The notes beneath the pieces were generated by a model, which was given only the letters and a program-made list of their open reading frames with translations, was not told where the DNA came from and ran no database searches. 64,000 bases of DNA from Escherichia coli (GTDB lineage Bacteria; Pseudomonadota; Gammaproteobacteria; Enterobacterales; Enterobacteriaceae), in the NCBI RefSeq assembly GCF_036507355.1, contig NZ_AP027877.1; one strand, written 5' to 3'. Shown here piece by piece: positions 919 to 20,937 of this stretch; position 1 is the first letter of the stretch; each line of letters starts with the position of its first letter. A program made the translations under genes and the position numbers.

Positions 919-976
919 AACATTCAGTTCCTTACTACGGGGGAGAGGGGGGATGCGGGGGAAACGTAGTGAACAC

Positions 977-1405: not shown

Positions 1406-1451
1406 AGTGAATTTCCTGATTTTTGGTTAACAGAACACAGAAAAAGCGGGG

Positions 1452-2247: not shown

Positions 2248-2457
2248 TCGAATATCATGGAAATAATATGTGTCCGTTTTAAGGGCTATTACAGGCTTGG
2301 TGTGTTGGATTTGTTTTTCTTATTACGAACAAATAGCGACTGGCTCAGGCCGGGATTGTTTAGAGACAGATTCAGCATAGATTCGTAAAAATAAAAACTA
2401 TTAGCGCGAGATCCTCTGTTTATGCCGTGACAGTTAACTGATAGGAGGCTTGTTGGT

Positions 2458-3161
2458 TGGATTTGCCCCTATATTTCCAGACACCTGTTATCACTTAACC
2501 CATTACTGGCCCGCTGCCGCAGATATTCCCGTGGCGAGCGATAACCCAGCGCACTATGCGGATGCCATTCGTTATAATGCTCGAACGCCTCTGCAAGGTT
2601 CTTTGCTGCCGTTAACCCGTCTGGTTTGGGCATGATACTTATGTAGTCACGCTTTATCGTTTTCACGAAGCTCTCTGCTATTCCGTTACTCTCCGGACTC
2701 CGCACTGCCGTGTTCTTCGGTTCAAGTCCCAACATCCTGGCGAACTGACGTGTTTCATTCGCCCGGTAGCATGAACCATTATCCGTCAGCCACTCCACTG
2801 GAGACGCCGGAAGCTCGCTGCCAAAGCGGCGTTCCACTGCTCCCAGCATGACGTCCTGTACTGTTTCACTGTCGAAGCCACCCGTTGTGACCCCCCAGTG
2901 CAGTGCCTCACGGTCACAGCAGTCCAACGCGAACGTGACCCGCAGTTTTTCTCCGTTATCACAGCGGAACTCAAACCCGTCAGAGCACCATCGCTGATTA
3001 CTTTCTTTCACAGCCACTCTGCCGGTATGTGCCCGTTTCGATGGCGGTACAGCGGGTTTTCGCTCAAGCAACAGCGCATTCTGGCGCATGATCCGGTAAA
3101 CACGTTTGGCATTGATCGCAGGCATACCATCAAGTTCTGTTTGTCTGCGAAGCAGCGCCCA
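2458..3161 (-). mobile_element. IS2 remnant: right inverted repeat plus 3' part of orfB (IS3-family transposase), 5' portion deleted
   Basis: ORF 2469-3125 matches the IS2 OrfB C-terminal region as I remember it (...[36 protein letters not shown]...[12 protein letters not shown]); terminus TGGATTTGCCCCTATATTTCCAGACA at 2458. Similarity stops abruptly near 3161. Confidence 0.8.
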
Positions 3162-3636
3162 TAACGCAGCCCTTGCCTTACTGGTGTTTCTGGCCCTGAC
3201 CGGATTACGCCTTGGTGAAACCCGTTATCTTCTGCTTGAGGATATCGACTGGTCCCGTCAGACCATCACTTTGCGAGAAACTAAAAACGGTAAGCTTCGC
3301 TGTGTGCCAGTGGGTGATAAGGCCTTTGTTCTTCTGACTGAGCAGCGCCAGCACTTGGGCGATAAAGGCTGGGTTTTCCCCGGCTATAACACAACTAATC
3401 CGGTTGCAGAACCACGCCGTCTGCAAAAGCGTATATGTGAGAAAGCCGGTATTTCACCATTCACTATTCATGAGATGCGACACACTTTCGCCACGAAACT
3501 TATCGAGAGTGGGGCTGACATCCATACCATCAAAGATTTACTGGGCCACAGCACCATAAAGGTTACCGAGAGGTACCTACATGGCAGCCCGGTGCGCTAC
3601 CACGAGGCCATTAACAAGGCGATGGATACGTTCTAG
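3160..3636 (+). pseudogene. Tyrosine recombinase (phage-type integrase) C-terminal catalytic fragment, N-terminus missing
   Basis: ORF 3106-3636 carries integrase catalytic motifs (HEMRHTFAT, LLGHSTIKVTERYLH) but only ~160 aa; directly abuts the truncated IS2 segment. Confidence 0.7.
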
Positions 3637-3717
3637 GTATAAGCATAACTATCCACAGGCAGGTTAGTTCCTTTTTCCCTGCACGCGATTTATCTGTTTT
3701 TAATTGAGGATTAGATA

Positions 3718-5643
3718 ATGAATAACATAGTGACACCCGCCCCCTTAACGACAATGGCGCGTTTTGCCTGTTCGAAACTGAATGGATTTCTGGCTCGTCG
3801 GGCTTTGCATCAGGCAAATGCGAAGAAAATCCTTAAAAAGGCAATTGCAATCAGCATTGCGGTCGATGAGATTTCGGCAAAAGGGGGGCGTGATGGTCTG
3901 CCTGATGGGTTTGTTAACTCACCGCATGGGCTTTTTTATGATGATGGCAAAAAAGTGTTTCAGCTCAGTTCTACTGCTATTGTTCCCGTCAGCAGGCATT
4001 ATTCAGCGTGTAAGAAGCGCAATATGGGTGTCGAACTCATGACCATTAATCATGCGGGTCAGTATGTCTGCGCTGAAATTTCACTGAGCAACGTTACGCT
4101 AAACCCCGATAGTGTGATTGGCTCCCTGACAGCGCAAGGTTTCGGTATCCCTATGACGGTAAAGACGAAAGAGCTGTTGGCGCAGTTCTTACAGACATGT
4201 ATGAAGCAAGCGCTGGCTCTCCCTACCTACCTTGTCGCTGATTCAATGGGATTTGTACCCGGCAAGAAAGCGTTCTTACATGGCAATATGCCTTTAGCAC
4301 AGAACATCCCTGGGTTTGATTACCTTATTTCCGTTCAGCGTACACCCGCAGGGATCGTTGAGTCCGGCACGCTGGATGCGTGGAAGGCTCTGGTGAAAAA
4401 GAATGTCCATGGATGGCCACAGATTTTTGCATTGTGTTCTGCCTTTGCGTCCATGCTGGTTGCATTGTGTAAAATGGATGTGGCGATGTTTCACTTCTAT
4501 GGTGGGTCAACGACTGGAAAAACGATCCTTCTCCAGCTTGCGATGTCAGTTCATGGTCATGGCGGGGAGCCGGGAAGTGGAAAGCTTGTCAATGTTCTTC
4601 GCTGGAATACCACGGTGAATGCGCTAGAGAAGCGACTGAGTCAGTTCTCAGGCCTGCTGGCATGTGTGGATGAGTTGGGGGCTTATAAACAAAAGGACTT
4701 CGCTTCGCTCCTGTACAACATTACCGCCGGTCAGGGTAAAAGCAGAATGGACAAGAATCTGGATATACGTGAGCTTTATACATGGGAAATGTTAATTCTC
4801 TCCGCAGGTGAAATGTCCATTTCTGAGAAGCTAGCGACGGAAAAAGAACATCTTCAGGGTGGACAGGAACATCGCGCCATTAGCCTCAATGTTTTGCCTG
4901 AAGATGCCCGTAAAGACGGCGAATCATCAGAAAGGGTACGCTGCCGCGCTGATAGTCTGAAAAATGGCCTGAGTGAAGTTTATGGTACGGCGGGTAAGGA
5001 ATTTATTGCTAATTTGCTGGCACTGGATAATGACGATGATGAACCGCAGTCCTGGGATGAAATGTGCCTGTCTATTCAGGGGGCAGTAGAAGAACAACGT
5101 GACAGTCTTGTCGGTGAGCTGCAGGAAGAAGGTTATGCACTTAGTGACATTCAGCTGCGTGCATTAAAACGATTTTCCCTATGTTTGTGTGCCGGAATCC
5201 TGGCAGCATCATGGAATATCCTTCCGTTCAGTGAAGATATTATTAAGGGTGCGGTAATGAGCGCGGCTCGTCGCTGGCTGGATGATAAACCAAACCAGTA
5301 TAGCCCACTAAAGCAGGTGCTTACGGCTATCCAGCACGATCTTCTCACAACCAGAGCGTCCCATTTAATGCCGTTGCTTGATGAGGATGCGCATACCCCA
5401 TACAACCACTGGGGGTACACGGATAAGAACGATAACATGATGATTTTCGCTCCTGTTTTTGAAGGCTGGTGTGCCAAAAAAGGCATTAAACCTGCTGATG
5501 TGGCGAAAGCATTGGCAAAAAAAAATCACCTCAAACCAGAAAGTCAGGGCCACTACAAAAAACGTCCTCAGAAGGGAGTTCAGCAACCTTTTTATCTGGT
5601 TATGAATACATTTCTTGGCTGTAACATTGGCGCTGACTTTTAA
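3718..5643 (+). CDS. DUF927-like protein with P-loop NTPase (primase/helicase-like replication protein of integrative elements)
   Basis: 641-aa ORF with Walker A GGSTTGKT and Walker B-like CVDELG; architecture recalled from P4-like/integrative-element replication proteins. Confidence 0.55.
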   Translation: MNNIVTPAPLTTMARFACSKLNGFLARRALHQANAKKILKKAIAISIAVDEISAKGGRDGLPDGFVNSPHGLFYDDGKKVFQLSSTAIVPVSRHYSACKKRNMGVELMTINHAGQYVCAEISLSNVTLNPDSVIGSLTAQGFGIPMTVKTKELLAQFLQTCMKQALALPTYLVADSMGFVPGKKAFLHGNMPLAQNIPGFDYLISVQRTPAGIVESGTLDAWKALVKKNVHGWPQIFALCSAFASMLVALCKMDVAMFHFYGGSTTGKTILLQLAMSVHGHGGEPGSGKLVNVLRWNTTVNALEKRLSQFSGLLACVDELGAYKQKDFASLLYNITAGQGKSRMDKNLDIRELYTWEMLILSAGEMSISEKLATEKEHLQGGQEHRAISLNVLPEDARKDGESSERVRCRADSLKNGLSEVYGTAGKEFIANLLALDNDDDEPQSWDEMCLSIQGAVEEQRDSLVGELQEEGYALSDIQLRALKRFSLCLCAGILAASWNILPFSEDIIKGAVMSAARRWLDDKPNQYSPLKQVLTAIQHDLLTTRASHLMPLLDEDAHTPYNHWGYTDKNDNMMIFAPVFEGWCAKKGIKPADVAKALAKKNHLKPESQGHYKKRPQKGVQQPFYLVMNTFLGCNIGADF

Positions 5644-5818
5644 GAGGGAGCAGGAATAGAGATTAAATAATATAAGGTTAATTAAGATTTTCCGTGCCGT
5701 AATTTAAATTGTAGGATCCGGAAATATAATCTGAATGCTCAGAGGGCAGGTTGTGCACAAAATGGGCATTTAATTTTTTAATTATTCAACATATATATCA
5801 ACTAAAGGTAATTTTAAA

Positions 5819-6238
5819 ATGTATCATACAACTCCTGATGAATGTCCTGAGTTTCCACAGGCGATTAGTTCCGAAAATGTGGGGAAAGTAAAATTTACAC
5901 GTTACAGGCTCTTAATGACACAGGCTCAATGCAATTTTTATGGTATTCAACGAGAGATTTTTGATGGCGAATTTCCTGCTCTTAGAGCAATTGTTAAAGG
6001 TGATTTTCAAATCGAATTTTTTGTGAAATATAAGTGTAGAGGGCTGGATTACTATGGTTCTCTTGGTGATTGGCCTCATATGACAATTAGTGATGCAAAA
6101 GAAATCGCAGAGGGAGTTTTCAATAACTGCGATGACTCCCACCGTAATAACTGGGAGGGTGAAAATGATAGCGATAGTATCGAAGAAGACATGATGAGCT
6201 ATTTTGAAAATGGTATTCCATTCGGCAATAATTCATAG
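5819..6238 (+). CDS. Hypothetical small acidic protein in very AT-rich segment
   Basis: 139-aa ORF with no recognisable family; surrounding 5640-6300 is conspicuously AT-rich. Confidence 0.35.
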   Translation: MYHTTPDECPEFPQAISSENVGKVKFTRYRLLMTQAQCNFYGIQREIFDGEFPALRAIVKGDFQIEFFVKYKCRGLDYYGSLGDWPHMTISDAKEIAEGVFNNCDDSHRNNWEGENDSDSIEEDMMSYFENGIPFGNNS

Positions 6239-6335
6239 GTTTATACTGGATTTTCACGTCAGTAACGAAATCGAAATTCGCACATGAAAACATCTATATC
6301 TATGAGGTAGTTACTTATCGATAAACGACTGTGAA

Positions 6336-6364
6336 AGCAGAGGGGCGGCCCCTCTGCTTTTTTT
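6336..6364 (+). terminator. Rho-independent terminator hairpin between convergent genes
   Basis: GCAGAGGGGCGGCCCCTCTGC stem followed by a T-run. Confidence 0.5.
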
Positions 6365-6365
6365 G

Positions 6366-7553
6366 CTACAACGTATCGGGTAACTGAGCGCGGATACGTT
6401 CCGCCAGTAACTGACTGGTGTTCTGTAAGCGCTGAGGATGAAGATGTGCATAACGCTGTGAAGACTGACTGCTACGGTGCCCCAGTTGAGCCTGAACGTC
6501 ATATAGCGTACCGCCGTAGGACACGATGAGGGCGGCAACCGAATGGCGGCAGGTATGGATACACACTTCCTTGTCGAAAATTCCCGCCCGACGCACGATA
6601 CGCTGAAAGGCTTTAACCGGGTTACTCAGCGGCATTCCCTGTTTTTTACCAATAAACAACCACGGATTTCCCCGCTGCGTTGGCAGCGTTCTGATTACGT
6701 CCATCGCCAGTGAGTTAAGGTGAACAATCCGTCCATAGCCATTCTTGGTTTCAGGGAGCCACAGGGTGCGTTTAACCGGGTCAACATGCTCCCACTTTGC
6801 CAGACGCAGCTCATCGCGGCGAAGGCCGGTCAATAACAGCAGTTTGACATAGCGGGCAGCTACAGGGCTGGTATCGTTATCGGCGGAGAGAAAAATACGA
6901 CGAATTTCGTCCTCGGTAAAATAACGCTGTCGGGCGTTGTTCTCCCTGAGTAGCTGTACCACCCTTGCCGGATGAACAGAGGTCATGCTTTGCCTTCCGG
7001 CCCATGTAAAGACGGCTTTAATGAGTACGATGACACGGTTACAGGTAGCCGCTGACAGGGAAGTACTTAACGTCTGCTGAAGGCGCAGAATGCTCGCTGG
7101 TGTGATATCGCTCAGCAGCCTCTGACCAATGGCGGGACGGATATGATCGCGGTAGCGCTGAACATCCTTTCCCCAACTGCGTTTAGCGGATTTTGCCCAT
7201 GGCAGATAATGCTGATTAAAGAGTTCATCGAACGTCAGCTCCATTCTCTTGTTTTCACGCTCCTGCTTAGGGTCAGTGCCGGTGGCAAGGGAACGTTTGT
7301 GTTCTATGGCAATCTGACGGGCAAGATTGACGTCCACTTCAGGCCAGTGACCAATGGCGATGGCGCGTTTTCGTCCATGATAGAGGTAGCGGAGCAAAAA
7401 CTTTTTACGACCTTCTTTTCTGCTGACCAGACACTTGAGGCCGGAAATCTCGGTGTCGCTGTATTCGGCATCGGTGCTGCGTGCATCTGATGTGTTAGGG
7501 GGCAGTGATTTAATGAGCTGATTAGTAAAACGGAAGCGTTTGGGAGTGGACAT
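6366..7553 (-). CDS. int: P4-type tyrosine integrase
   Basis: 395-aa ORF with arm-binding-like N-terminus and catalytic R..HxxR..Y region (HTCRHSVAALIV, LGHRSSQSSQRYAHL); lies 7.3 kb from tRNA-Phe and is transcribed away from it. Confidence 0.85.
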   Translation of the reverse strand: MSTPKRFRFTNQLIKSLPPNTSDARSTDAEYSDTEISGLKCLVSRKEGRKKFLLRYLYHGRKRAIAIGHWPEVDVNLARQIAIEHKRSLATGTDPKQERENKRMELTFDELFNQHYLPWAKSAKRSWGKDVQRYRDHIRPAIGQRLLSDITPASILRLQQTLSTSLSAATCNRVIVLIKAVFTWAGRQSMTSVHPARVVQLLRENNARQRYFTEDEIRRIFLSADNDTSPVAARYVKLLLLTGLRRDELRLAKWEHVDPVKRTLWLPETKNGYGRIVHLNSLAMDVIRTLPTQRGNPWLFIGKKQGMPLSNPVKAFQRIVRRAGIFDKEVCIHTCRHSVAALIVSYGGTLYDVQAQLGHRSSQSSQRYAHLHPQRLQNTSQLLAERIRAQLPDTL

Positions 7554-7985
7554 ATAACCTCCTGTGACTGGTGTAAAGAACGTCAGGGTTGACCCATCCC
7601 CGGCACGGCGTTGTTAATGGCTAAGTTGATTTTCTGGCATGGCGAAGGGAATGCTGGTGCCACATGGTATGAATTAAGACGGGAAATGCAGAAAGAGCAG
7701 GCTTTACGGTCTGATTCTGGTCTTAAGGGAAAAGATTGCCGTTGGGGAAGAGTTCACAGAAATAATATGTGTTTCAGTCTAGAACAATTACATGCCATGA
7801 GGATCAAGAGAGTTGCCCGTATATGGCAGGTATCAAAGTTGGTTATGGATGTTGCCAAAACATAGTGGGGATGGATGTTGAAGTGCTAACTTGATGTTTT
7901 TAATGGGAAAGTGTAAATTGCGTGATGCGTTGCACTCATGTAGATAACACCATTGAAAGTATCAAATTGTTTGAAAAAAAATCAT

Positions 7986-8056
7986 CTTTGATCAACCTTA
8001 AGATTGTTTCTAGATGGTAAAATCTTCATATGGGAAAGAGCTCACTGGTAAGGAAG
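7986..8056 (+). promoter_or_regulatory. Putative promoter and RBS for the four-gene operon
   Basis: AT-rich divergent intergenic region; TTGATC ... TGGTAAAAT (extended -10-like) and AGGAAG 10 nt before the ATG at 8067. By eye only. Confidence 0.25.
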
Positions 8057-8066
8057 ACAAATCCTG

Positions 8067-9119
8067 ATGGGGATCATCGTACGAATTCTTAAAGCTAACC
8101 ATGGCGATTGCATTTTGGTGAGCCATGAAAGCGGTTCAGGCACTCTCAACTTGCTCATTGATGGGGGACCTGCGACGACATTCAGGTATGGCATTAGGCA
8201 GCGCTATTCTGGAGCATTGAGTAACGCTCTCGATGATCTGAAAGGAAAGGGGCAAAACATTGATCTGGCTATCCTGACCCACATTGATGATGATCACATA
8301 AATGGTTTTATCAAGGCATTCGAAAGTCCAAACTATCTGCGTCAGCTGGTTAAATCGATCTGGTTCAATTCTTCGAGGTTAATCACACATCATTTTAATG
8401 TGCCTGAAATTTGTGAAAATAATATTTTCTTGCAGGAAGTTTCCCCTGAAACTAGCGTTAAACAGGGGCAAGAACTTGAGGCATTACTTGATGAAATCGG
8501 ATGTGTGCGAGCACCGCTCATTATGGCAGGGCAAATCTACAAAGTAGGCCCGATTACTTTAACAGCACTTTCACCTGAACGAAGACAACTCGAACAGCTT
8601 TTGCATAAGTGGCCAACGGAAGTAAGTTCAGCTGACACTTCTTCATATGAGAATGATTATCACCGTTCATTGGACGAAATTTGGGCAGATGATAGATTTG
8701 AATCTGACTCATCTATTTATAATGGAAGCTCAATTGCATTTTTACTGGAAACAGATGACAAAAAAATGCTTTTTTTAGGAGACGCCAATGACCAAGTTGT
8801 TACAAAAAATTTAAGAGCATTGGGCTATAGCGAAACAAACAAGTTGAAGCTGGATCTGGTTAAAGTTTCGCATCATGGTAGTCAATACAACACAAGCAAC
8901 GAATTTCTTTCAATACTAGATTCTCCATGCTTTGTTATTTCAACCAATGGTTCGAAGCATGGTCTTCCTAATAAAAGGACTATTGCAAGGATCTTAAAGG
9001 AAACAGATGGTGATATTTATTTTAATTACAGCAATGTAATTACTCCGCTGCTTTTAGCGCATGAAGCTGAGAGCTATTCTTCTCGTCTAAAAGTGCTAGG
9101 TGATGAGATTAAATTCTAA
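8067..9119 (+). CDS. Metallo-beta-lactamase-fold hydrolase (putative nuclease)
   Basis: 350-aa ORF with MBL motifs in canonical order: LIDGG, THIDDDH (8278-8298), FLGDAN, VSHHGS. Confidence 0.7.
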   Translation: MGIIVRILKANHGDCILVSHESGSGTLNLLIDGGPATTFRYGIRQRYSGALSNALDDLKGKGQNIDLAILTHIDDDHINGFIKAFESPNYLRQLVKSIWFNSSRLITHHFNVPEICENNIFLQEVSPETSVKQGQELEALLDEIGCVRAPLIMAGQIYKVGPITLTALSPERRQLEQLLHKWPTEVSSADTSSYENDYHRSLDEIWADDRFESDSSIYNGSSIAFLLETDDKKMLFLGDANDQVVTKNLRALGYSETNKLKLDLVKVSHHGSQYNTSNEFLSILDSPCFVISTNGSKHGLPNKRTIARILKETDGDIYFNYSNVITPLLLAHEAESYSSRLKVLGDEIKF

Positions 9120-10419
9120 CATGACAGTTTACGAAATAATGCAGTCCCACTGCGTCATGGTTAATGGTGGCAGTGGTGTGCTAGTTAATGCAATGACACT
9201 GGATTACACATATGTACTGACTGCATACCATGTTATTCGTGACACTCTCGATAATATCGAAGTTACCGATCACAGTGGCAATAAACTTACAGTATTAGCT
9301 GTGCTCCTATATCCAGATATTAAATATTTGAACGAATCCCATAATGATTTCGCAATTTTAAAAATTGAATATCAACCAGAAGTTGCACAAAGTTGTTTTA
9401 CTGCTTCGACGTTGCCTCCTCGTGCTGAGCTTACATTAGTAGGATTTCCAAACACTGAAAGAAGGAGTTCGGATCCTATAAAATATTATGATGGACATAT
9501 GACTAGCGTGGTCGATGAGCTTGTCATTTTCACTGTTGATGGTGTACCAGGCTTAGCCACGATAAAGGGGATGTCAGGTGGAGGTGTATATCACATAGTT
9601 GGTAGAAATACATTTCTTGTTGGTGTTGAGTTTAGGATGGATGGCACTGAAGAGGAACAACAGTTTGGCCGAGTGCAATGCCATAGCTTAGCAAAGTTTG
9701 ATGAAATAATAAGAGCATACGATAGCGCACCGATGATTCCTGCCCATTTGGAATGCTTTTCTCGAATACAAGACAAAATATTTAAATTTAATGTTATTGA
9801 TCAAAACAATGTTCGTAATCTTAAAGATGCGTTAGAAGCCCTTTCCAGATCACTTATAGCTAGTGGGATGTCTCCGCCTTACAAAATCATGGGGCAATAT
9901 GGATTACAGCTTTTGATGGATCCCAAAACTCCTAATGAGCTCAGTAATAAAGAGTTATGGATTTCTTATTTTGAATTTTTAGTTATTTGCTCTGTGATAG
10001 ATAATGTTGGAATTGTGGATGATGCATATATAAAAAGCTTGGAGCGAAAGCGGCGGCTATTATATACCAGTAATGGTGCGAACTGGATTAGCCATTTGGA
10101 AGAACTACTCAAAACGGCACGAAAACTTTTAGATAAGGATGGCACTTTAATCGTTGCATCACCTGATGCTGCTGCAAGTGTCTTGCCTCCGAACTTTCGA
10201 CTTAAAAACGTAATAAGTAATATAGCGGTAGTGCCAAACCAGGGGCCGTTTGCTATCGATGAAGTTGAAAGTTCTATTTATACAAGCTTCAAATTAACTC
10301 ATCTGGAGGGACTCCGCAAAAGCTGCGTAATAGACCGTGAGGATGAATATCTAGTAGTTCCAGCAGGTGTACCACAATTGCAGTTATTTAAGGAGAAGCT
10401 TAATGAAATTATTAAGTAA
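9100..10419 (+). CDS. Trypsin-like serine protease domain fused to a ~250-aa C-terminal domain of unknown function
   Basis: His (LTAYHVI), Asp (NDFAILK), Ser (GMSGGGVY) in S1 order in the first ~170 aa. Start ambiguous (GTG 9100, ATG 9103 or ATG 9121); overlaps or abuts the upstream stop. Confidence 0.7.
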   Translation: MMRLNSNMTVYEIMQSHCVMVNGGSGVLVNAMTLDYTYVLTAYHVIRDTLDNIEVTDHSGNKLTVLAVLLYPDIKYLNESHNDFAILKIEYQPEVAQSCFTASTLPPRAELTLVGFPNTERRSSDPIKYYDGHMTSVVDELVIFTVDGVPGLATIKGMSGGGVYHIVGRNTFLVGVEFRMDGTEEEQQFGRVQCHSLAKFDEIIRAYDSAPMIPAHLECFSRIQDKIFKFNVIDQNNVRNLKDALEALSRSLIASGMSPPYKIMGQYGLQLLMDPKTPNELSNKELWISYFEFLVICSVIDNVGIVDDAYIKSLERKRRLLYTSNGANWISHLEELLKTARKLLDKDGTLIVASPDAAASVLPPNFRLKNVISNIAVVPNQGPFAIDEVESSIYTSFKLTHLEGLRKSCVIDREDEYLVVPAGVPQLQLFKEKLNEIIK

Positions 10420-10942
10420 GGAAGTCGATCTGAGTATTTTAAGTGTGAAATATGATAAAATCAGATTTCACATGTATTGCTCAGATGATCCACTTTCATT
10501 TATTTCCTGTATAGTATGTGTATGTGAGACTTCAGCCGATATTTTGGAGAATTGGCGTACTATTCAAAATGTGGTTTCTGTTCACTATCAACCATCGGGT
10601 GACTTAGCATCTTGGAATATGTATATTGTTTTTTTTACAACTGATGTTTTTCCTGTATGGGAAAAATATGAAATAGAAAACAATAAGTTTGCTGCTCGCA
10701 AGATAATTATTGATAAATTCTCAGGTGCCCCCACCTCTGCTCAGTTAGTTACTGAGTTGCAAAAATATTTGTTGGGAACAGACTTAAGACTTGATCCGCG
10801 AGTCAATGAGTCAAAAGAGGCTTTATTGTCTTTAGATAAATACGTTCGTGGTGCTCCATTAGATTCAAAGAATGAGTCCAGAGAAATCCGCGCCTCCATG
10901 GTCAATGAAATAATTAAATTTTTGAACAAAAATGAAAATTAA
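10403..10942 (+). CDS. Small protein of unknown function (possible adaptor component)
   Basis: 179-aa ORF from ATG 10403 with AGGAG upstream; overlaps previous gene end by 17 nt and next gene start by 11 nt. Confidence 0.55.
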   Translation: MKLLSKEVDLSILSVKYDKIRFHMYCSDDPLSFISCIVCVCETSADILENWRTIQNVVSVHYQPSGDLASWNMYIVFFTTDVFPVWEKYEIENNKFAARKIIIDKFSGAPTSAQLVTELQKYLLGTDLRLDPRVNESKEALLSLDKYVRGAPLDSKNESREIRASMVNEIIKFLNKNEN

Positions 10943-13900
10943 AAAAGTTGAGATTGAAGCATTTCGTGCCTACAAATCTAGGTCAGATGGCACGTTTGAT
11001 TTCACGAATGATGGAGATGTTGCTGCAAATTTTGTTGCGATCTATGCTCCGAATGGTTTTGGTAAAAGCTCCTTCTACGATGCTGTTGAATGGGCAATTA
11101 CCAATCACATGGCAAGACTTGGCGGAGAATATAATAAAGCTAATTATGAGAACGCTGCCAAAATCACCAAGGACGATAATGTTGGGCAAGAAATTTTACG
11201 TAATAAATATGTAGATAAAAATATACGCACAAAGGTAGTGGTATCAACCACTCGACCACTCCCTTTTGAGCGTAAACTACCCAAAGTCAGATCTAATGGG
11301 CGTGATTTGCGATTCGGAGATAATAGTCAAAGAGAAAATGATTTTTTCCGACAAGTGATTCTAAGTCAAGATGAAATTGATAGATTTCTCCGAGAAGCCA
11401 AACCGCAAGAGCGCTATACGAAATTTATGGAAAGTTTCGGTGGAGATATTGAAATTGCCCGTAAAGAGCTGTCAGTACTTATAAATGATAATAAGATTGA
11501 GTTGAATAATCTCAATAAAAAGAGAGAATCTATTCTTGAACAATTAAAACAACCAATAGATTCTTCAATTTTCCAAAAATTCAATTCTATTGCTGTTGAA
11601 TTGAATAAGTTGGGTGAAAATATTCAATTACCTGACGAGAGTTTTTCATCTCAAGATGAATATGCTCTTAATGTTAGTCTTATATCGCGACGCCATGAAC
11701 TCGACTCATCACGTTTAACGAACAATCGAACGGTAGAAGCACTGGAAGACAGGCTTCTAAAAATATCTGAAACTGAATTACATGTCCGCAGTTTAGCAGA
11801 ACAGAATTTACATCTTGCTAAATTAGTGAAAGGAGTGGCCGACGCTGATAGGTACCAATCACTTTTGGATTCATACGAAAAATGTGCAGAAGATCAGAAA
11901 ACCACACACATGCATATGACTCGTATTATAGAAGTGATTGATTGCCTTGATGATTTTCTAAAAATTGAGTCTCATCTTCTTGAGTTGTCTACTAGCCAAA
12001 AGATAATTTCTGAAGAACGCACCAAGATCTGTGCGCAGCTTGCAGGTTTTGAAACAACAATTAATCAATTGAATAAGGAGCTTAAGGCTGTAGATGATAG
12101 GGTCGCTATACTTAGGAAGACCGTTGATAACGCCGGGCAAGTATATTTGGAGCTCGCAAATAACCGGGCTCGGGTAAGTAACCTAACACAGCAAATATCA
12201 AAAAAAGAAGTTTCTATTAAGATAGATAAATCTAGGCTTGGGGAGTTGAATCGTGAGTTGACTAGACTTTCTGAACTCAATATTAATGCCACCTCATTAT
12301 CAAACGGAAATCTAGGGACCTTACTTTTAGAACCTACGAAAGTTGAGCAGCTGACGAGATGTTACGCCGAGTTTGATGTGATTGAATCACAAATTCAAGC
12401 TGTGCATGTTACTCAAAAAGCATTATCTGAACAGATGGAATTGCATGAACGACTGATTGCCATTGGAATTGACTATCTTAGTGTACGACCATCCAGTATC
12501 TGTCCTTTATGTACAGCTCCTCACCCATCTGCGGACGGTTTACTGGATAAAATTAAAGGGCGGAACCTTTTATCAGAATTAAGTGAGGAGAATTCTAAAC
12601 AGCTTTTATTTTTCTCTACACGTCAGAAAGAAATTCTTCAATCAATTCAGGATATTACTCAGTGCGCAATTGATTCAAAGGCTCAGTTGATTATTAACTT
12701 AAACAAGGAATTGAGTGAGACTGACGAGAGACTTACTCTTGCAGGTAGAGATATATATTCAATAGAAGCAGAGTTAAAGACTCTTGAGAAACGGACCACA
12801 GAGTTAGAAAGTTTAGTTTGGGCACTTTCACATGATGAACTGGTATCCCGAATTGAAAAAGAAATTGGTGAGCTTTCAATCAAAAGTTCAAAGCTCCTAG
12901 AAGGAAAAGCATTAATTACCCCTCAGGTTGAAATGCTTAATGAATCACTCAAAGAAAAAGACTCTGCGCAGCAAAAAATAGCTTCGGAGTTGGAAGGTAT
13001 CTTTAGCGGAAATATCTACATTACAGTTTATAAATACTTAAATGAAAATGCGATTTCGTCTTCATCCCTCAAAAGTCATACTGAAAAAAGGAAACTAGAG
13101 ATTGAGGCTGAAATAATTAAGTGTAAAACCACTATTGAGTTTTTGACTGAACAATGTGCTGTTTTACAGCAAAAAATGTTAAGTGATGGTATGTGGGTGG
13201 ATTTTGTTCAGTTGAAGCTGCAAAAAGAATCTTTAGAAATAAGTGTTGCCCGCTCTCAATCAGTAATTAACACGTTTTATGAGAGTTTATCTAACCTTAT
13301 AATTATCCGTCCTGAGTACAGTCTTGAAAAAGTCAAAGAGCTCATAGCTGCGAAAGTTCAGGATTGCCATCTTCGTACGAAAGAATTTGATAGGCTCTCA
13401 AATAATATTAATTTACTCATAGAACTTATGAGTTCGTTTAAGCCATATATTAAACATACAGCTCTTCAGAAAGATTTAATGGCTGAAGAGATGTTAATAA
13501 AACAGCGTGAACGGGTCGACACTACTTTAACCGCAGAAAGAGATGCAATAGTGGATAGCCTGAAACTTCTTATCAATAATTTCTTCTATGAAGATCTTAT
13601 TAATTCTATTTATAAGAAGATAGATCCGCATCCTGCCTTTAAAAAAGTAGAGTTTAAGGCTGACTTTGATTCTGATAAGCCAGGCCTAAATATTGTGGTT
13701 AGTGATGAGGTTGGAGAGCAAATCTCGCCAATACTTTATTTCAGTGCGGCTCAAACGAATATTCTAAGCTTAAGTGTCTTTTTAGCTAGTGCACTTCATG
13801 CGAAAGACGATGAGGGTAATCCCATCAATGTTGTTATGATTGATGACCCAATTCAGTCAATGGATTCGATTAATATACTCTCTACGATAGATCTTTTAAG

Positions 13901-14063
13901 AAGTATATGTGTTCAATTTGATAAACAAATTATTATTTCAACGCATGATGAAAACTTCTTTGCCTTACTCCAGCGCAAAATCCCTGCCCAAATTTTTGGA
14001 TCTAAATTCTTGCAATTGGAAAAGTTTGGTGTAGTCGTCCCGGTGCAACCCTTTGTGAACTAA
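10932..14063 (+). CDS. SbcC/Rad50-like ABC ATPase with long coiled coil and central CxxC zinc hook
   Basis: 1043 aa: Walker A NGFGKSS (Lys codon 11064-11066), Q-loop ILSQDE, CPLC at 12501-12512 (residues 524-527, mid-protein), signature-like FSAAQ, Walker B VVMIDDP, H-loop STHDE. The middle ~600 aa are heptad-rich and Leu/Glu/Lys-rich. Confidence 0.8.
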   Translation: MKIKKVEIEAFRAYKSRSDGTFDFTNDGDVAANFVAIYAPNGFGKSSFYDAVEWAITNHMARLGGEYNKANYENAAKITKDDNVGQEILRNKYVDKNIRTKVVVSTTRPLPFERKLPKVRSNGRDLRFGDNSQRENDFFRQVILSQDEIDRFLREAKPQERYTKFMESFGGDIEIARKELSVLINDNKIELNNLNKKRESILEQLKQPIDSSIFQKFNSIAVELNKLGENIQLPDESFSSQDEYALNVSLISRRHELDSSRLTNNRTVEALEDRLLKISETELHVRSLAEQNLHLAKLVKGVADADRYQSLLDSYEKCAEDQKTTHMHMTRIIEVIDCLDDFLKIESHLLELSTSQKIISEERTKICAQLAGFETTINQLNKELKAVDDRVAILRKTVDNAGQVYLELANNRARVSNLTQQISKKEVSIKIDKSRLGELNRELTRLSELNINATSLSNGNLGTLLLEPTKVEQLTRCYAEFDVIESQIQAVHVTQKALSEQMELHERLIAIGIDYLSVRPSSICPLCTAPHPSADGLLDKIKGRNLLSELSEENSKQLLFFSTRQKEILQSIQDITQCAIDSKAQLIINLNKELSETDERLTLAGRDIYSIEAELKTLEKRTTELESLVWALSHDELVSRIEKEIGELSIKSSKLLEGKALITPQVEMLNESLKEKDSAQQKIASELEGIFSGNIYITVYKYLNENAISSSSLKSHTEKRKLEIEAEIIKCKTTIEFLTEQCAVLQQKMLSDGMWVDFVQLKLQKESLEISVARSQSVINTFYESLSNLIIIRPEYSLEKVKELIAAKVQDCHLRTKEFDRLSNNINLLIELMSSFKPYIKHTALQKDLMAEEMLIKQRERVDTTLTAERDAIVDSLKLLINNFFYEDLINSIYKKIDPHPAFKKVEFKADFDSDKPGLNIVVSDEVGEQISPILYFSAAQTNILSLSVFLASALHAKDDEGNPINVVMIDDPIQSMDSINILSTIDLLRSICVQFDKQIIISTHDENFFALLQRKIPAQIFGSKFLQLEKFGVVVPVQPFVN

Positions 14064-14559
14064 AGTGCTTGCACTGCCTCTAAACAATCTGCATGCACAT
14101 CTCGTTGACTAAATTTGAAACGAGATGTGCATTGCTCGTTATAAAAATAAGGCATGTTCTAATTATCCAATCCCCATCAGTATAAGTGGGTGGATAGATA
14201 TATTTGGCCCCTTTAACAGATATGTTAATTTCCACTTTTCGCTTACAGTGGACCTGCAGCTCAGTAACTTACTCACTTTGTGCTAGGAACGGGCATTGCT
14301 AATAGTCAGAGTGTATGACCTGCTCATCGTTGATTAAGGACAGCGCTGTACTGGTTCGTTGAACCCACGGCTCACAACGGACACTCAGGTTATTATTCCA
14401 ATACGTTTAGCTCAAGTAGTATTACTACGGATAAATCATTTTATGATGGCGTGGAGAACGGGGGGATTCTGAAAATGGTAAGAAGTGAAAGGGCAAGAAG
14501 AGCTTGTTGCAGGTGGACGGACTGGTGAAGATTCCCATCTGGAGGGTGTATGCTGCCAA

Positions 14560-14730
14560 GTTTCCCCGCTTGCTATTGGGGATTTCCCCACCTTATTCCC
14601 CGCGACAAAATCATGTTAAGACCAGCGGATTAAGGAGAAATGATAATTCCCCCGTTTTCCCCGTATTTTCTACTTCATTATGAATGATCTGAGAGAAAGG
14701 AACCGTAGAGGACCGTAGAAAGACCGTAGC
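14560..14730. repeat. Clustered short direct repeats (five TTCCCC motifs at 14561-14663; three ACCGTAG repeats at 14702-14729, ~10-11 bp phasing)
   Basis: Read directly from the sequence in the 840-bp non-coding stretch between the operon and tRNA-Phe. Confidence 0.4.
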
Positions 14731-14899
14731 AGTGAGGTTAGGAAAAGGTACATCAGAGGATGTTGAGGTGTCTAAAAGTAACGAACATCTGCGAAAATGG
14801 CGAGAAATCCAGCAAACAAATAACGTGTTGCAACGACCAGAAATCTACCGTAGCCAAGAAAGGAAAAAGCCCCGCTTTGCAGCGAGGCCTTATGAATAT

Positions 14900-14975
14900 T
14901 GGTGCCCGGACTCGGAATCGAACCAAGGACACGGGGATTTTCAATCCCCTGCTCTACCGACTGAGCTATCCGGGC
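14900..14975 (-). tRNA. pheV: tRNA-Phe (GAA anticodon)
   Basis: Reverse complement reads GCCCGGATAGCTCAGTCGGTAGAGCAGGGGATTGAAAATCCCCGTGTCCTTGGTTCGATTCCGAGTCCGGGCACCA, the E. coli tRNA-Phe as I remember it; position next to yqgA-speC indicates pheV. Confidence 0.95.
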
Positions 14976-15080
14976 AACGGGGCGCATTAAACCTGATTCG
15001 CCTCGTCTCGTCAATCAAATTTCTTCAATTTACTGCAGACTGCACAATCTATCATCACTTTGCCGCTATTGCACGCATTG

Positions 15081-15790
15081 TCAGGCAAACCAGGCGGTCC
15101 AGGTGGCGGAAAGCGGCATTGCCAGAAGGAGTGCTGGAAGCATGTTGACCACCGGGAACATTTTAATGCCACAGATGCGTAATCCGGTTGCCAGCAGCAA
15201 TAAACCGCCTACGGCGCTGAAGTCTGCCATCATCGACGGTGTGGTCAGCGGTAATATCAGCGCGGCAGCCCACGCCAGCGTTAACTGGATGATCAGTAAT
15301 GGGATACTAATTACCGACACCGCAATACCCAGCGAGCAGGCGAAGATCATCGCCGTAAAGAAATCAAGAAATGACTTGGCGATTAAAATACTCGGATCGC
15401 CGGTCATCCCTTCGTTCATCGCCCCGAAGATCCCGGTGCCGCTGGCGCAAAACAGGACAATAATCGCGACATAATTCTGAATAAAAGATTCATGCGCTGG
15501 CTTCTTACGTGAGTGACGAAACAGATTTTGTGCTTTGGCGACCGCTGTATTGACGCCTTTCTCCAGCAGACAAATTTCGCCGATTAATGCTCCGAGTAAG
15601 GTTGCTAAAACCATCGCCGGAAGGTTGGCGCATTTCACCACCAGTAAAATACCAATCCCCAGCGATGCCAGACCAAAAATAGATGTCATGGAGACGCGCG
15701 GATACGTTCCGGTAAGCGTTGGCTGAGCAGTGCGCCGAGAACGCCACCCAGTAATACTGCACTAGCGTTGATAAAAGGGCCGATGACCAC
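15081..15790 (-). pseudogene. yqgA: DUF554 inner-membrane protein, apparently frameshifted near codon 33
   Basis: 202-aa ORF (15081-15689). The 101 nt upstream (15690-15790, GTG start) encode a hydrophobic N-terminus in another frame ending in a stop. 33+202 = 235 aa, the length I recall for YqgA. Confidence 0.55.
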
Positions 15791-16187
15791 AAGAGTTCCT
15801 GTTAACTGTATTGTTTGATTTTCTTATTATGAACTTTTTGCCTTGTTGATGGCTTGTCTGGTCGCAAAGTCCTGGCTTGCACGCTTTAGCGAAAGGTGCC
15901 ATGATTGCGCGAATTTTCTCCTCTCTGTACGGAGTTTGCCCGATGCACGCCACCTCCTTACATTCTCTCGCTTATCGCCGCTTCGCGCGAAACTCTTCTC
16001 TTTTTATGCTACTGCTCATGCGGTGAAGTTAGCGCACGCTCACTGCAGGACAACAGTAAAATCAGAGCGTTTCTGCTTTTACTGATGTCTGGCGGTCGGA
16101 GCTGGTGACCAGTTTGACCCATATCTCATGGGGCAGGGTTTTCCACCTTGTCCGGTATTCTTACTTCCCCGAAACGGGTTTGCGCTT

Positions 16188-18323: not shown

Positions 18324-18333
18324 GAATAAAAAA

Positions 18334-18364
18334 AACGGGTCACCTTCTGGCGACCCGTTTTTCT
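18334..18364. terminator. Bidirectional intrinsic terminator between convergent speC and nupG
   Basis: A-run, CGGGTCACCTTCTGGCGACCCG hairpin, T-run. Confidence 0.6.
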
Positions 18365-18372
18365 TTGCGTAA

Positions 18373-19629: not shown

Positions 19630-19830
19630 GTTAATTTCCTCACATCGTGATGCGGATGAGTGTTTGAAAAAGCACATTTGACCGTGCGAGATGATGGGAT
19701 TCTATCAACTTCGCGGACTGGTTTTTTGTTACCTGTGGCAAATAATTGCAAACATTCCTAATTTGCAAAACGAAATTGTGATATGGATAACATTTTTGCC
19801 CCTGAGCATCGTCAGGGGCGGTTAGTGGAA

Positions 19831-20937
<1,107 letters not shown>

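What the first reader, a model, noticed from the sequence alone, without database searches (positions are those of the whole stretch)
7554..14063. Operon is compositionally foreign and translationally coupled
By eye this block is far more AT-rich than the flanking core genes (no computed GC value). All three internal gene junctions overlap (about 20, 17 and 11 nt), implying stoichiometric co-expression. The 500-bp AT-rich region at 7554-8066 separates it divergently from the integrase.
Basis: seen in the sequence. Interest (0 to 1): 0.45.

Follow-up and report, generated by a model that had tools for sequence, protein, structure and literature searches.

The report
Imported Lamassu anti-phage operon in E. 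coli
The AT-rich four-gene block is a horizontally acquired Lamassu anti-phage defence operon sitting in the swappable cargo slot of a mobile island at a tRNA-Phe gene, so it is a catalogued kind of system and not a new one.

Summary
The observation largely holds. The operon (8067-14063) has GC 0.375, against 0.518±0.012 for 6-kb core windows. Its GC3 is 0.29-0.35, and its codon index is lower than that of every core ORF in the window.

Junctions 2 and 3 overlap by 17 and 11 nt. Junction 1 is either a 1-nt gap (ATG 9121, which homologues favour) or a 17-20 nt overlap.

All four proteins match PADLOC Lamassu models almost end to end:
- an MBL-fold hydrolase;
- LmuC (MComp1);
- a 1043-aa SMC/SbcC-like LmuB with a single CxxC hook.

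This is the known Hydrolase-Protease "long" Lamassu. In 45 homologous loci from three phyla the same gene order recurs, junctions 2 and 3 each overlap in 43 of 45, and lmuB almost never has a Shine-Dalgarno site. Coupling is therefore conserved.

The operon is cargo in a variable slot (~7832-14369) between a P4-type integrase and pheV. About 200 E. coli genomes keep part or all of the slot's flanks, and those examined hold other cargo there. Only 3 of 5426 carry this operon. A Serratia copy is 95.5% identical.

The system is known and of modest interest.

The parts
6366..7553 (-). P4-type tyrosine integrase of the tRNA-Phe island, divergent from the operon. Context only, not part of the cargo.
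   Evidence: Pfam Arm-DNA-bind_3, Phage_int_M and Phage_integrase. Conserved at 90-96% in islands that carry other cargo.
7554..7831 (.). Conserved integrase-side backbone of the island and left flank of the cargo slot. PGAP calls a small hypothetical ORF at 7617-7865 that runs across the slot boundary.
   Evidence: blastn to islands with other cargo ends at window 7771-7831. GC of 7554-7870 is 0.457. The small ORF has no Pfam hit.
7832..14369 (.). Variable cargo slot as occupied here: 6538 bp, GC 0.377.
   Evidence: The flanks are shared with AW1.7, G3/10, GPT21-003, strain 54 and F11, whose slots hold dCTP deaminase, LysR+ADH+restriction endonuclease, DUF3825, a 195-aa hypothetical, or SIR2+TPR.
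7880..14137 (+). Lamassu cassette as a transferable unit: own upstream region, four genes and terminal hairpin.
   Evidence: 95.5% identical over 6259 bp to Serratia marcescens CP092461, which has different neighbours.
7880..8066 (+). AT-rich upstream region of the cassette. Candidate promoter and 5' UTR, with an AAGGAAG Shine-Dalgarno site before ATG 8067.
   Evidence: GC 0.342 for 7871-8066. Sequence read. The consensus scan gives only one weak -35/-10 match at 7953-7982, no better than shuffles.
8067..9119 (+). MBL-fold hydrolase (350 aa), a ComEC-nuclease-like predicted pro-nuclease. This is the Lamassu 'LmuA_effector_Hydrolase'.
   Evidence: PADLOC PDLC03854 at 2e-128, full length. Also hits Avs1a and RTasMBL and NCBIfam Avs1a at 1.4e-59. 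Conserved THIDDDH and SHHGS motifs; invariant I115 and I205. AF2 pLDDT 85 with low-confidence loops at 121-135 and 181-200. Best PDB fold match is the ComEC beta-lactamase-like domain 9ic4.
9121..10419 (+). LmuA: trypsin-like serine protease fused to ABC-3C CTD4 (432 aa). Alternative starts are ATG 9103 and GTG 9100.
   Evidence: PADLOC PDLC03855 at 1.6e-142, aligned from residue 8 of the 9100 frame. Pfam Trypsin_2 and CTD4 at 1e-59. H37, D76 and S152 are at least 90% conserved in 43 homologues, and the N-terminus MTVxEIMQSYCVxVNGGSG is conserved.
10403..10942 (+). LmuC, the ABC-3C middle component 1 (179 aa). Overlaps lmuA by 17 nt.
   Evidence: PADLOC PDLC03873 at 3.5e-50. Pfam MComp1. AAGGAG lies 8 nt before the ATG.
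10932..14063 (+). LmuB, an SbcC/Rad50-like SMC-type ABC ATPase (1043 aa). Overlaps lmuC by 11 nt and has no Shine-Dalgarno site.
   Evidence: PADLOC PDLC03865 at E=0, residues 1-1038. Pfam AAA_23 and SMC_N. Conserved Walker A 39-APNGFGKS-47, Q146, single C524-P-L-C527 hook, S938/A940/Q941 signature, Walker B VVMIDD971-972 and H1005. Weak Rad50 hit in the PDB.
14093..14132 (+). Perfect 14-bp inverted repeat 30 nt after the lmuB stop. Candidate transcription terminator or RNA-stabilising hairpin.
   Evidence: I2. RNA fold -30.8 kcal/mol, z -3.8 against shuffles. The cassette shared with Serratia ends at 14137. There is no U-tract, so it was not picked up by the terminator scan.
14370..14899 (.). 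Conserved non-coding tRNA-proximal flank of the slot, with four ACCGTAG repeats (14702, 14712, 14722, 14847). Candidate att arm region.
   Evidence: 86-92% identical in islands with other cargo, and the junction is sharp at 14370. Repeats. 90% identical next to tRNA-Phe in Serratia.
14900..14975 (-). tRNA-Phe (GAA), i.e. pheV, the integration target of the island. Core genes yqgA, speC and nupG follow.
   Evidence: ARAGORN. Rfam tRNA at 68 bits. Annotation of YZ22MPE54.

Best explanation
The block is a complete, intact 'long' Lamassu defence system of the Hydrolase-Protease subtype, also called an ABC-three-component system. E. coli acquired it horizontally as the cargo of a variable slot in an integrase-bearing island at tRNA-Phe.

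Likely mechanism, step by step:
1. The four genes are transcribed as one unit from the cassette's own AT-rich upstream region (inferred).
2. They are translated in a coupled way through conserved stop/start overlaps. lmuB depends on ribosomes that finish lmuC (inferred from conservation).
3. An LmuB dimer, with its CxxC zinc hook and Rad50/SbcC-like heads, holds LmuC and the LmuA protease-CTD4 in an inactive complex. The complex surveys DNA (by analogy with solved short Lamassu complexes).
4. DNA ends or replication intermediates of a phage or plasmid, together with ATP hydrolysis, release LmuA and let it oligomerise (analogy).
5. The activated trypsin-like domain cleaves the gating loops of the co-encoded MBL pro-nuclease, probably after the invariant I115 and I205. 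This was shown for the homologous pairs in Hachiman and Avs1 and was proposed, not tested, for Lamassu.
6. The unmasked nuclease degrades DNA indiscriminately and aborts the infection (analogy).

The low GC reflects a low-GC lineage of the cassette that is passed among Gammaproteobacteria. It is not a local mutational or functional quirk.
For: Identity:
- Full-length PADLOC hits to the four Lamassu models PDLC03854, 03855, 03873 and 03865, with E-values from 3.5e-50 down to 0.
- Pfam CTD4 and MComp1 of ABC-3C, Trypsin_2, Lactamase_B and AAA_23/SMC_N.
- Gene order hydrolase, lmuA, lmuC, lmuB.

Intactness:
- Protease triad H37/D76/S152.
- MBL motif H72-x-D74-x-D76-H77 plus H269/H270.
- LmuB Walker A, Walker B of the 'hhhhDD' type and a single CxxC. 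The last two are the features given for long Lamassu in PMC12663957.

Pro-nuclease features:
- Homology to Avs1a.
- Fold closest to the ComEC nuclease domain.
- About 70 extra residues between the metal motif and the YNGSS strand relative to ComEC.
- Two low-confidence loops.
- Two invariant isoleucines, I115 and I205, at positions like HamM I118 and I218 in PMC12799240.

Family function: a Hydrolase-Protease Lamassu from B. cereus B4077 is the one experimentally validated long Lamassu (PMC12663957, citing Millman 2022). Lamassu systems act by abortive infection and need LmuB ATPase, the effector and LmuC (10.1101/2022.05.11.491447).

Horizontal transfer.

Coupling.
Against: - Nothing here shows expression or anti-phage activity of this particular operon.
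- The proteolytic activation step has been demonstrated only in Hachiman and Avs1 contexts.
- The sensing and release model comes from short Lamassu, whose LmuC and LmuA C-terminal domains differ from the long type.
- I115 and I205 lie next to the lowest-confidence segments of the model, not inside them. Their equivalence to the HamM and Avs1a cleavage sites was not aligned directly.
- No convincing sigma-70 promoter was found.
- An AT-rich 6-kb block in E. coli could be silenced by H-NS (general knowledge, untested).
Confidence: 0.85

Rival explanations
1. It is a DNA-uptake or DNA-repair operon, as RefSeq's product names suggest ('ComEC/Rec2 family competence protein', 'AAA family ATPase'). 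On this reading it would be an SbcCD-like repair machine with an accessory nuclease, not an immune system.
For: PGAP names. The nuclease's closest solved relatives are ComEC MBL domains. LmuB is the length of SbcC, has a CxxC hook and weakly hits Rad50. PMC12663957 argues that Lamassu descends from SbcCD.
Against: The 350-aa protein has none of ComEC's membrane channel or OB domains. There is no Mre11/SbcD phosphoesterase; a 179-aa MComp1/LmuC and a protease-CTD4 stand in its place. All four proteins match defence-system models far better than any housekeeping family. The operon is found in 3-13 of 5426 E. coli genomes, in a slot otherwise filled by dCTP deaminase, SIR2 or restriction genes.
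Confidence: 0.03
2. The operon is a silent passenger. It is intact in sequence but transcriptionally silenced (for example by H-NS on AT-rich DNA), or otherwise not functional in E. coli, so its composition and overlaps are just inherited baggage.
For: GC of 0.375 over 6 kb is in the range typically bound by H-NS in enterobacteria (general knowledge). No good sigma-70 promoter was found. Rare-codon content is 6-9%. The operon is very rare in the species.
Against: All four ORFs are intact with every catalytic and nucleotide-binding residue conserved. Three E. coli strains from chicken, pork and human on three continents keep it at 99.7-100% identity. The Serratia copies are intact in 4 of the 5 places shown. 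Defence cassettes cloned with native promoters commonly work in E. coli (10.1101/2022.05.11.491447).
Confidence: 0.1
3. The gene overlaps are incidental compaction and not functional translational coupling. In AT-rich DNA, stop codons and ATGs are frequent, so overlaps arise easily. Each gene would then be translated independently.
For: lmuC has its own strong Shine-Dalgarno site. Junction 1 may not overlap at all. Start positions in the homologous loci were inferred by extrapolating alignments, not measured.
Against: The same overlap classes recur across three phyla at 22-63% protein identity: -17, -11 or -20 at junction 2 and -11 or -20 at junction 3. Each of these junctions overlaps in 43 of 45 loci, and no junction-1 gap exceeds 10 nt. 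lmuB has a Shine-Dalgarno-like 4-mer in only 4 of 45 loci, and in none of the 14 close gammaproteobacterial relatives displayed. Loci with GC 0.44-0.51 keep the overlaps too.
Confidence: 0.12

Closest known systems
Lamassu family, Hydrolase-Protease subtype ('long' Lamassu). Sources: Millman et al. 2022, Payne et al. 2021 (PADLOC), Haudiquet et al. 2025 (PMC12663957). The validated example is from Bacillus cereus B4077.
   Same: Four genes in the same order: MBL hydrolase, protease-LmuA with conserved CTD, LmuC and SMC-like LmuB. Walker B is of the hhhhDD type and there is a single CxxC hook. All four subtype-specific PADLOC models match at full length.
   Different: This is a gammaproteobacterial lineage and this copy has not been tested. 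LmuB is 1043 aa, about the length of SbcC (from memory) and above the ~800 aa quoted as typical for long LmuB. No sequence comparison with the B. cereus system was possible here.
ABC-three-component (ABC-3C) systems, the source of Pfam CTD4 (PF20280) and MComp1 (PF20289). The Krishnan/Aravind 2020 attribution is from memory.
   Same: ABC ATPase, middle component 1 and an effector carrying CTD4. RefSeq uses these names.
   Different: It is the same thing under another nomenclature, so there is no real difference.
Gated pro-nuclease / trypsin-like protease pairs of Hachiman (HamM-HamA) and AVAST type 1 (Avs1a-Avs1b). Source: Tuck et al. 2025, PMC12799240.
   Same: [quoted passage not shown] The nuclease is homologous to Avs1a, has a ComEC-like fold with extra loops and has two invariant isoleucines.
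   Different: The sensor is LmuB/LmuC and not HamB helicase or a STAND ATPase. Proteolytic activation is only proposed for Lamassu. Cleavage sites here are predicted, not mapped.
Short Lamassu / DdmABC of Vibrio cholerae (cryo-EM: PMC12663957; 10.1101/2025.03.14.643221)
   Same: An SMC-like LmuB dimer with LmuC sequesters LmuA. DNA-end sensing and ATP hydrolysis lead to effector oligomerisation and abortive infection.
   Different: That effector is a Cap4 nuclease fused to LmuA, with no protease or pro-nuclease relay. Its LmuB is ~600 aa, and its LmuC and LmuA-CTD belong to different families.
Dedicated defence-cargo positions in mobile elements at E. coli tRNA hotspots (Hochhauser et al. 2023, PMC10121019; the P2/P4 hotspots of Rousset et al. 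2022 are cited there)
   Same: An integrase-bearing element sits at a tRNA gene, with one fixed position carrying alternative defence systems in different strains.
   Different: The slot lies between the integrase and the tRNA-proximal att region. The element has two integrases and a DUF927 primase-like gene and no P4 capsid-hijacking genes. I did not establish whether this particular slot has been described.

Membership tests
Lamassu (long, Hydrolase-Protease subtype) | LmuB: SMC/Rad50-like ABC ATPase with Walker A Gx4GK[S/T], Walker B hhhhDD, a coiled coil and a single CxxC zinc hook | tested here: met
   PADLOC PDLC03865 at E=0, covering 1-1038 of 1043. 39-APNGFGKS, VVMIDD971-972 and a single C524PLC527 are all at least 90% conserved in 39 homologues. 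The criteria come from PMC12663957.
Lamassu (long, Hydrolase-Protease subtype) | LmuC: a small middle component encoded immediately upstream of lmuB | tested here: met
   PADLOC LmuC PDLC03873 at 3.5e-50, full length. Pfam MComp1. Overlaps lmuB by 11 nt.
Lamassu (long, Hydrolase-Protease subtype) | [quoted passage not shown] | tested here: met
   PADLOC LmuA PDLC03855 at 1.6e-142. Pfam Trypsin_2 and CTD4 at 9.6e-60. Catalytic H/D/S conserved.
Lamassu (long, Hydrolase-Protease subtype) | Accessory MBL-fold hydrolase gene directly upstream of the protease-LmuA | tested here: met
   PADLOC LmuA(hydrolase) PDLC03854 at 2.2e-128. The same arrangement is seen in 45 homologous loci.
Lamassu (long, Hydrolase-Protease subtype) | Confers phage or plasmid resistance by abortive infection, dependent on LmuB ATPase, the effector and LmuC | not testable with these tools
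   Known only for other members (10.1101/2022.05.11.491447; PMC12663957).
Gated pro-nuclease/protease pair (Tuck et al. 2025) | MBL nuclease encoded separately and immediately upstream of a trypsin-like protease that is fused to a defence protein | tested here: met
   Gene layout 8067-9119 then 9121-10419. Homology to Avs1a (PADLOC 8.8e-48; NCBIfam NF041809 1.4e-59, which is below the equivalog cut-off).
Gated pro-nuclease/protease pair (Tuck et al. 2025) | Two insertions relative to the ComEC-type nuclease that carry conserved cleavage-site isoleucines | tested here: inconclusive
   About 70 extra residues lie between the metal motif and the YNGSS strand relative to ComEC. Low-confidence loops at 121-135 and 181-200. 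I115 and I205 are invariant in 32 sequences. There was no direct alignment to HamM I118/I218 or Avs1a I134, and model coordinates could not be inspected for active-site occlusion.
Gated pro-nuclease/protease pair (Tuck et al. 2025) | The nuclease is inactive until cleaved by the partner protease | not testable with these tools
   Biochemistry is required.
Translationally coupled operon | The downstream start codon overlaps or abuts the upstream stop, conserved in evolution, and the downstream gene lacks its own ribosome-binding site | tested here: met
   Window junctions are +1 (or -17/-20), -17 and -11. Junctions 2 and 3 each overlap in 43 of 45 loci. lmuB has a Shine-Dalgarno-like 4-mer in 4 of 45 loci. 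Actual coupling of translation was not measured.
tRNA-integrating genomic island with P4-type integrase | Tyrosine integrase with an Arm-DNA-binding N-domain next to a tRNA gene; the same element found at alternative tRNA copies; direct repeat of the tRNA 3' end at the distal border | tested here: inconclusive
   Integrase domains. The same island is found at pheV and pheU. No repeat of the tRNA 3' end lies within the window; the island extends beyond the window start.

The most novel reading that the evidence does not exclude
The 6.26-kb Lamassu cassette (7880-14137), and the other cargos of the integrase-to-tRNA-Phe slot, might be exchanged by a dedicated site-specific mechanism, an integron-like cassette swap acting at a fixed junction. 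The usual explanation is ordinary homologous recombination between conserved flanks.

Observations that leave this open:
- Four cargo types end at the same nucleotide (window 14370, GCTCACAGCGGACACTCAGG), and a fifth within about 26 nt (14396).
- The same cassette occurs with different neighbours at the tRNA-Phe locus of Serratia.
- ACCGTAG repeats lie in the conserved flank.
Probability: 0.06. Interest if true: 0.65.

Novelty: already known. Interest (0 to 1): 0.27.

Why it matters
The result explains an obvious compositional anomaly as routine biology: a catalogued anti-phage system carried as swappable cargo of a mobile island.

Its practical value is modest but real:
- It is a native E. 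coli copy of the least-studied Lamassu branch (long, SbcC-length LmuB, protease-to-pro-nuclease relay). The proteolytic activation step has been proposed but not demonstrated for that branch, and this copy offers testable residues (I115, I205, S152, K45).
- The comparative data show that the overlapping gene junctions and the lmuB start without a Shine-Dalgarno site are conserved across phyla. That makes this operon a clean case for asking whether coupling sets subunit ratios that prevent autoimmunity.
- It flags a probable RefSeq start-codon error and misleading 'competence protein' names.

Tried and rejected
- I looked for a direct repeat of the tRNA-Phe 3' end to delimit the island inside the window. 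None was found, because the island continues beyond the window start.
- Rfam found only the tRNA in 1-20000, so no known riboswitch or sRNA explains the conserved non-coding flank.
- The consensus promoter and terminator scan gave fewer hits than shuffles and no convincing operon promoter. The post-operon hairpin came from the repeat search instead.
- PDB sequence searches gave only marginal ComEC, Rad50 and irrelevant hits. No close relative has been solved.
- tblastn of LmuB against phage genomes gave no match. Against plasmids it gave only two full-length hits, with Acinetobacter ursingii at 63%. A phage or plasmid vector for this lineage is therefore not supported.
- PGAP's protease start at 9178 was rejected because it removes a conserved N-terminus.
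- The 'ComEC/Rec2 competence' and SbcCD-repair readings were considered and rejected (see the rival explanations).
- The small PGAP ORF 7617-7865 has no family hit, crosses the slot boundary, and is not annotated in sister islands. It is probably not a gene.
- I did not run the deep representative search, a second structure prediction, or a metagenome scan. The identification was already unambiguous.

Full report
**1. Checking the observation**

A 1-kb composition profile shows GC of 0.35-0.40 from 8 to 14 kb, in a window that otherwise sits near 0.52. The exact figures are:
- finding 7554-14063: 0.378;
- operon 8067-14063: 0.375;
- 431 overlapping 6-kb windows to the right of the tRNA: 0.518 ± 0.012, minimum 0.490.

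GC3 of the four genes is 0.29-0.35, against 0.573 ± 0.049 (minimum 0.46) for 35 long ORFs of the core part. A CAI-like index built on those ORFs puts all four genes (0.52-0.57) below the lowest core ORF (0.573). Eight rare codons make up 6-9% of the operon's codons, against 2.6% in the core.

The junctions were read directly.
- lmuC starts at ATG 10403, preceded by AAGGAG, and overlaps the upstream stop (10417-10419) by 17 nt.
- lmuB starts at ATG 10932, has no Shine-Dalgarno site, and overlaps the lmuC stop (10940-10942) by 11 nt.
- The first junction is ambiguous. GTG 9100 gives a 20-nt overlap, ATG 9103 gives 17 nt, and ATG 9121 gives TAA-C-ATG with a 1-nt gap.

For the first junction, the PADLOC profile begins at the Met encoded by 9121. 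An alignment of 43 homologues shows a conserved N-terminus, MTVxEIMQSYCVxVNGGSG, starting at that Met. A minority of homologues use an upstream ATG with a 17-nt overlap. Gene calls on the Serratia copies also give 432 aa starting one nucleotide after the stop. RefSeq's start at 9178 removes conserved residues of the protease fold and is probably wrong.

Two details of the observation need correcting.
- The 513-bp spacer is not uniformly AT-rich. Positions 7554-7870 have GC 0.457 and only 7871-8066 drops to 0.342.
- The sequence to the left of the operon is not core genome, as section 3 shows.

**2. What the operon is**

All four products match the PADLOC models of one Lamassu subtype almost end to end:

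| Product | PADLOC model | E-value |
|---|---|---|
| MBL-fold hydrolase | PDLC03854 | 2e-128 |
| LmuA | PDLC03855 | 1.6e-142 |
| LmuC | PDLC03873 | 3.5e-50 |
| LmuB | PDLC03865 | 0 (residues 1-1038) |

Pfam agrees:
- Lactamase_B for the hydrolase;
- Trypsin_2 plus 'C-terminal domain 4 of ABC-3C systems' (1e-59) for LmuA;
- 'ABC-3C middle component 1' for LmuC;
- AAA_23/SMC_N for LmuB.

This is the Hydrolase-Protease Lamassu, called an ABC-three-component system in the other nomenclature.

Conservation analysis on homologues recovered from 45 loci shows nothing is degenerate.
- The protease keeps H37, D76 and S152.
- LmuB keeps Walker A, the Q-loop, a single C524-P-L-C527 hook, the signature motif, Walker B VVMIDD and the H-loop.

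Haudiquet et al. (PMC12663957) give hhhhDD and a single CxxC as the marks of 'long' Lamassu. They place long LmuB next to SbcC, and they note that the only experimentally validated long system is a Hydrolase-Protease one from B. cereus.

**3. Why the operon is compositionally foreign: its context**

The window is the E. coli pheV locus. tRNA-Phe lies at 14900-14975 on the minus strand, followed by yqgA, speC and nupG.

Megablast against 5426 complete E. coli genomes finds the operon in three:
- GPEC1189 at 100% identity;
- YZ22MPE54 at 99.9%, at pheV;
- BKQWHE at 99.7%, at pheU next to dicD and dsbD.

The same island therefore occupies both tRNA-Phe genes, which is evidence of mobility.

About 200 further genomes keep part or all of the query's flank sequence. 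In those examined the cargo between the flanks differs:

| Strain | Cargo in the slot |
|---|---|
| AW1.7 | anti-phage dCTP deaminase |
| G3/10 | LysR + alcohol dehydrogenase + restriction endonuclease |
| GPT21-003 | DUF3825 |
| F11 | SIR2 + TPR |
| strain 54 and apparently most others (same ~1.65-kb span) | a single 195-aa hypothetical protein |

Pairwise blastn places the slot at about 7832-14369. The left edge is slightly ragged (7771-7831). On the right, four variants share one junction, at 14370, and a fifth ends at 14396. Cargo GC ranges from 0.31 to 0.49.

The rest of the window's left side is island backbone, and in YZ22MPE54 that backbone continues for more than 30 kb. The backbone includes:
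- DeoR, LRAT and DUF2787 genes;
- a second integrase and a DUF927 primase-like gene;
- a type I R-M system and a DUF262 protein;
- a toxin-antitoxin pair and further integrases.

A distant-mode search finds ten more E. coli genomes with a ~64.5%-identical operon of the same architecture at other chromosomal sites. The subtype is therefore rare in the species (13 of 5426) and was acquired more than once.

**4. Where the operon comes from**

The nuclease has more than 2400 relatives. The closest named ones are almost all Gammaproteobacteria: Serratia, Shewanella, Aeromonas, Vibrio, Photobacterium, Pseudomonas, Acinetobacter and Proteus.

Serratia marcescens carries a copy that is 95.5% identical over window 7880-14137. 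That span starts 187 bp upstream of the first gene and ends just after a perfect 14-bp inverted repeat at 14093-14132. The Serratia copy is also next to tRNA-Phe and the ornithine decarboxylase (speC-type) gene. Its neighbours differ, however: an IS3 element upstream and an extra DUF6602 gene downstream. Its GC is 0.373, against 0.57 for the adjacent core DNA.

Across the homologous loci, the operon's GC compares with its flanks as follows:

| Host | Operon GC | Flank GC |
|---|---|---|
| Halomonas | 0.383 | 0.605 |
| Marinobacterium | 0.386 | 0.555 |
| Pseudomonas | ~0.47 | ~0.56 |
| Acinetobacter, Photobacterium | about equal to the flanks | about equal to the operon |

So the cassette lineage is intrinsically AT-rich and moves among hosts. 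A low-GC gammaproteobacterial origin is plausible but not proven.

There is no LmuB homologue in 50,697 phage records. Only two full-length ones occur on plasmids.

**5. Translational coupling**

I located the four genes in 45 loci from Gammaproteobacteria, Bacteroidota and Bacillota, with 22-63% protein identity for the three Lamassu proteins. Starts were assigned by extrapolating the alignment to the nearest start codon.

- The gene order is invariant.
- Junction 2 overlaps in 43 of 45 loci, with modes of -17, -11 and -20 nt.
- Junction 3 overlaps in 43 of 45 loci, with modes of -11 and -20 nt.
- Junction 1 overlaps in 20 loci and has a gap of 0-10 nt in 24. It is never wider than that.
- lmuB has a Shine-Dalgarno-like 4-mer in only 4 of 45 loci, and in none of the close gammaproteobacterial relatives displayed.

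This is what conserved termination-reinitiation coupling would look like, but it remains an inference.

'Stoichiometric' should be read loosely. The solved short complexes are 1 LmuA: 1 LmuC: 2 LmuB (PMC12663957).

**6. How the system most likely works**

Tuck et al. (PMC12799240) showed that the MBL nuclease is a gated pro-enzyme in Hachiman and AVAST. The partner trypsin-like protease, once oligomerised by the sensor, cuts after conserved isoleucines on two loops that block the active site. That releases an indiscriminate DNase. They list Lamassu among the systems carrying the pair and include it in their model, but they did not test it.

The nuclease encoded here has the following features.
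- It is homologous to Avs1a.
- Its best structural match is the ComEC beta-lactamase-like nuclease domain 9ic4, 266 residues long against 350 for this nuclease.
- It has about 70 extra residues between the metal motif and the YNGSS strand relative to ComEC.
- It is modelled with pLDDT 85, except for loops at 121-135 and 181-200.
- It has invariant I115 (FNxPEI) and I205 (EIW) in 32 sequences. Those positions are close to HamM I118 and I218.

I therefore propose this sequence of events. LmuB2-LmuC senses DNA ends or replication intermediates. LmuA is released and oligomerises. The pro-nuclease is cleaved, and DNA degradation aborts the infection.

What is shown here is the parts list, its intactness and its homology. 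What is inferred is every dynamic step.

**7. Comparison, novelty and verdict**

The system meets every sequence-level criterion of the Hydrolase-Protease long Lamassu. The gating-loop criterion of the pro-nuclease family is met only suggestively. Function cannot be tested with these tools.

The island architecture, a fixed cargo position in a tRNA-integrating element, fits the general picture of Hochhauser et al. (PMC10121019).

Nothing here lies outside known kinds, so I rate it 'already known' with modest interest. The residual novel possibility is a dedicated cassette-exchange mechanism at the sharp slot junction. That is not excluded but is unlikely.

Noticed in passing
window 2458-3160, with 3106-3636: A ~700-bp fragment of an IS3-family transposase (rve domain; 99% identical to IS3 copies found in 4450 of 5426 E. 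coli genomes) replaces about 2.6 kb that YZ22MPE54 has here. The lost DNA held a hypothetical gene and the N-terminal two-thirds of a second integrase. Only that integrase's catalytic C-terminal 176 aa remain (3106-3636).
   Followed up: yes
window 9100-9180: RefSeq/PGAP annotates the protease-LmuA start at the GTG equivalent to window 9178. That removes the N-terminus MTVxEIMQSYCVxVNGGSG, which is conserved in 43 homologues. ATG 9121 (or 9103) is the likely start, so this is a probable database start-site error propagated in three genomes.
   Followed up: yes
window 14370-14899: A conserved non-coding 530-bp stretch next to tRNA-Phe is shared by islands with different cargo and by Serratia. 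It holds four ACCGTAG repeats (14702, 14712, 14722, 14847) and several TTCCCC(G) motifs. These may be integrase arm-type sites. There is no Rfam match.
   Followed up: partly
window 7617-7865: PGAP calls an 82-aa hypothetical protein (WP_001096211.1) in the integrase-operon spacer. It has no Pfam hit, runs across the cargo-slot boundary (~7831), and is not annotated in sister islands. It is probably not a real gene.
   Followed up: partly
L089 15211-15924 (Serratia marcescens CP092461): The Serratia copy of the cassette has an extra DUF6602 gene on the opposite strand, inserted between the post-lmuB hairpin and the tRNA-proximal flank. In the window, 51 bp (14138-14188) stand at that point.
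   Followed up: no
L001 (GPEC1189), locus 19347-19700: In GPEC1189 the 100%-identical island is followed by a truncated peptidase gene and the frvB/rha region, not by yqgA and speC. No tRNA-Phe is annotated there. This suggests a chromosomal rearrangement or an assembly join at the tRNA.
   Followed up: no
H101-H110 (e.g. NZ_CP070026.1 3868017-3871505): Ten other complete E. coli genomes carry a Hydrolase-Protease Lamassu operon that is ~64.5% identical, at unrelated chromosomal positions. One of them is interrupted by ISApl1. These are independent acquisitions of the same subtype.
   Followed up: partly
window 50355-50731: A second, short low-GC patch (the 1-kb window 50001-51000 has GC 0.395) coincides with a ~380-bp intergenic region between divergent ORFs 49446-50354 (-) and 50732-51175 (+). 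It was not examined further.
   Followed up: no
window 5819-6238: A 139-aa ORF between the DUF927 gene and the integrase has GC 0.379 and GC3 0.31, as AT-rich as the Lamassu genes, and no Pfam or PADLOC hit. Sister islands have a DUF4102 (Arm DNA-binding) ORF at this position instead.
   Followed up: no
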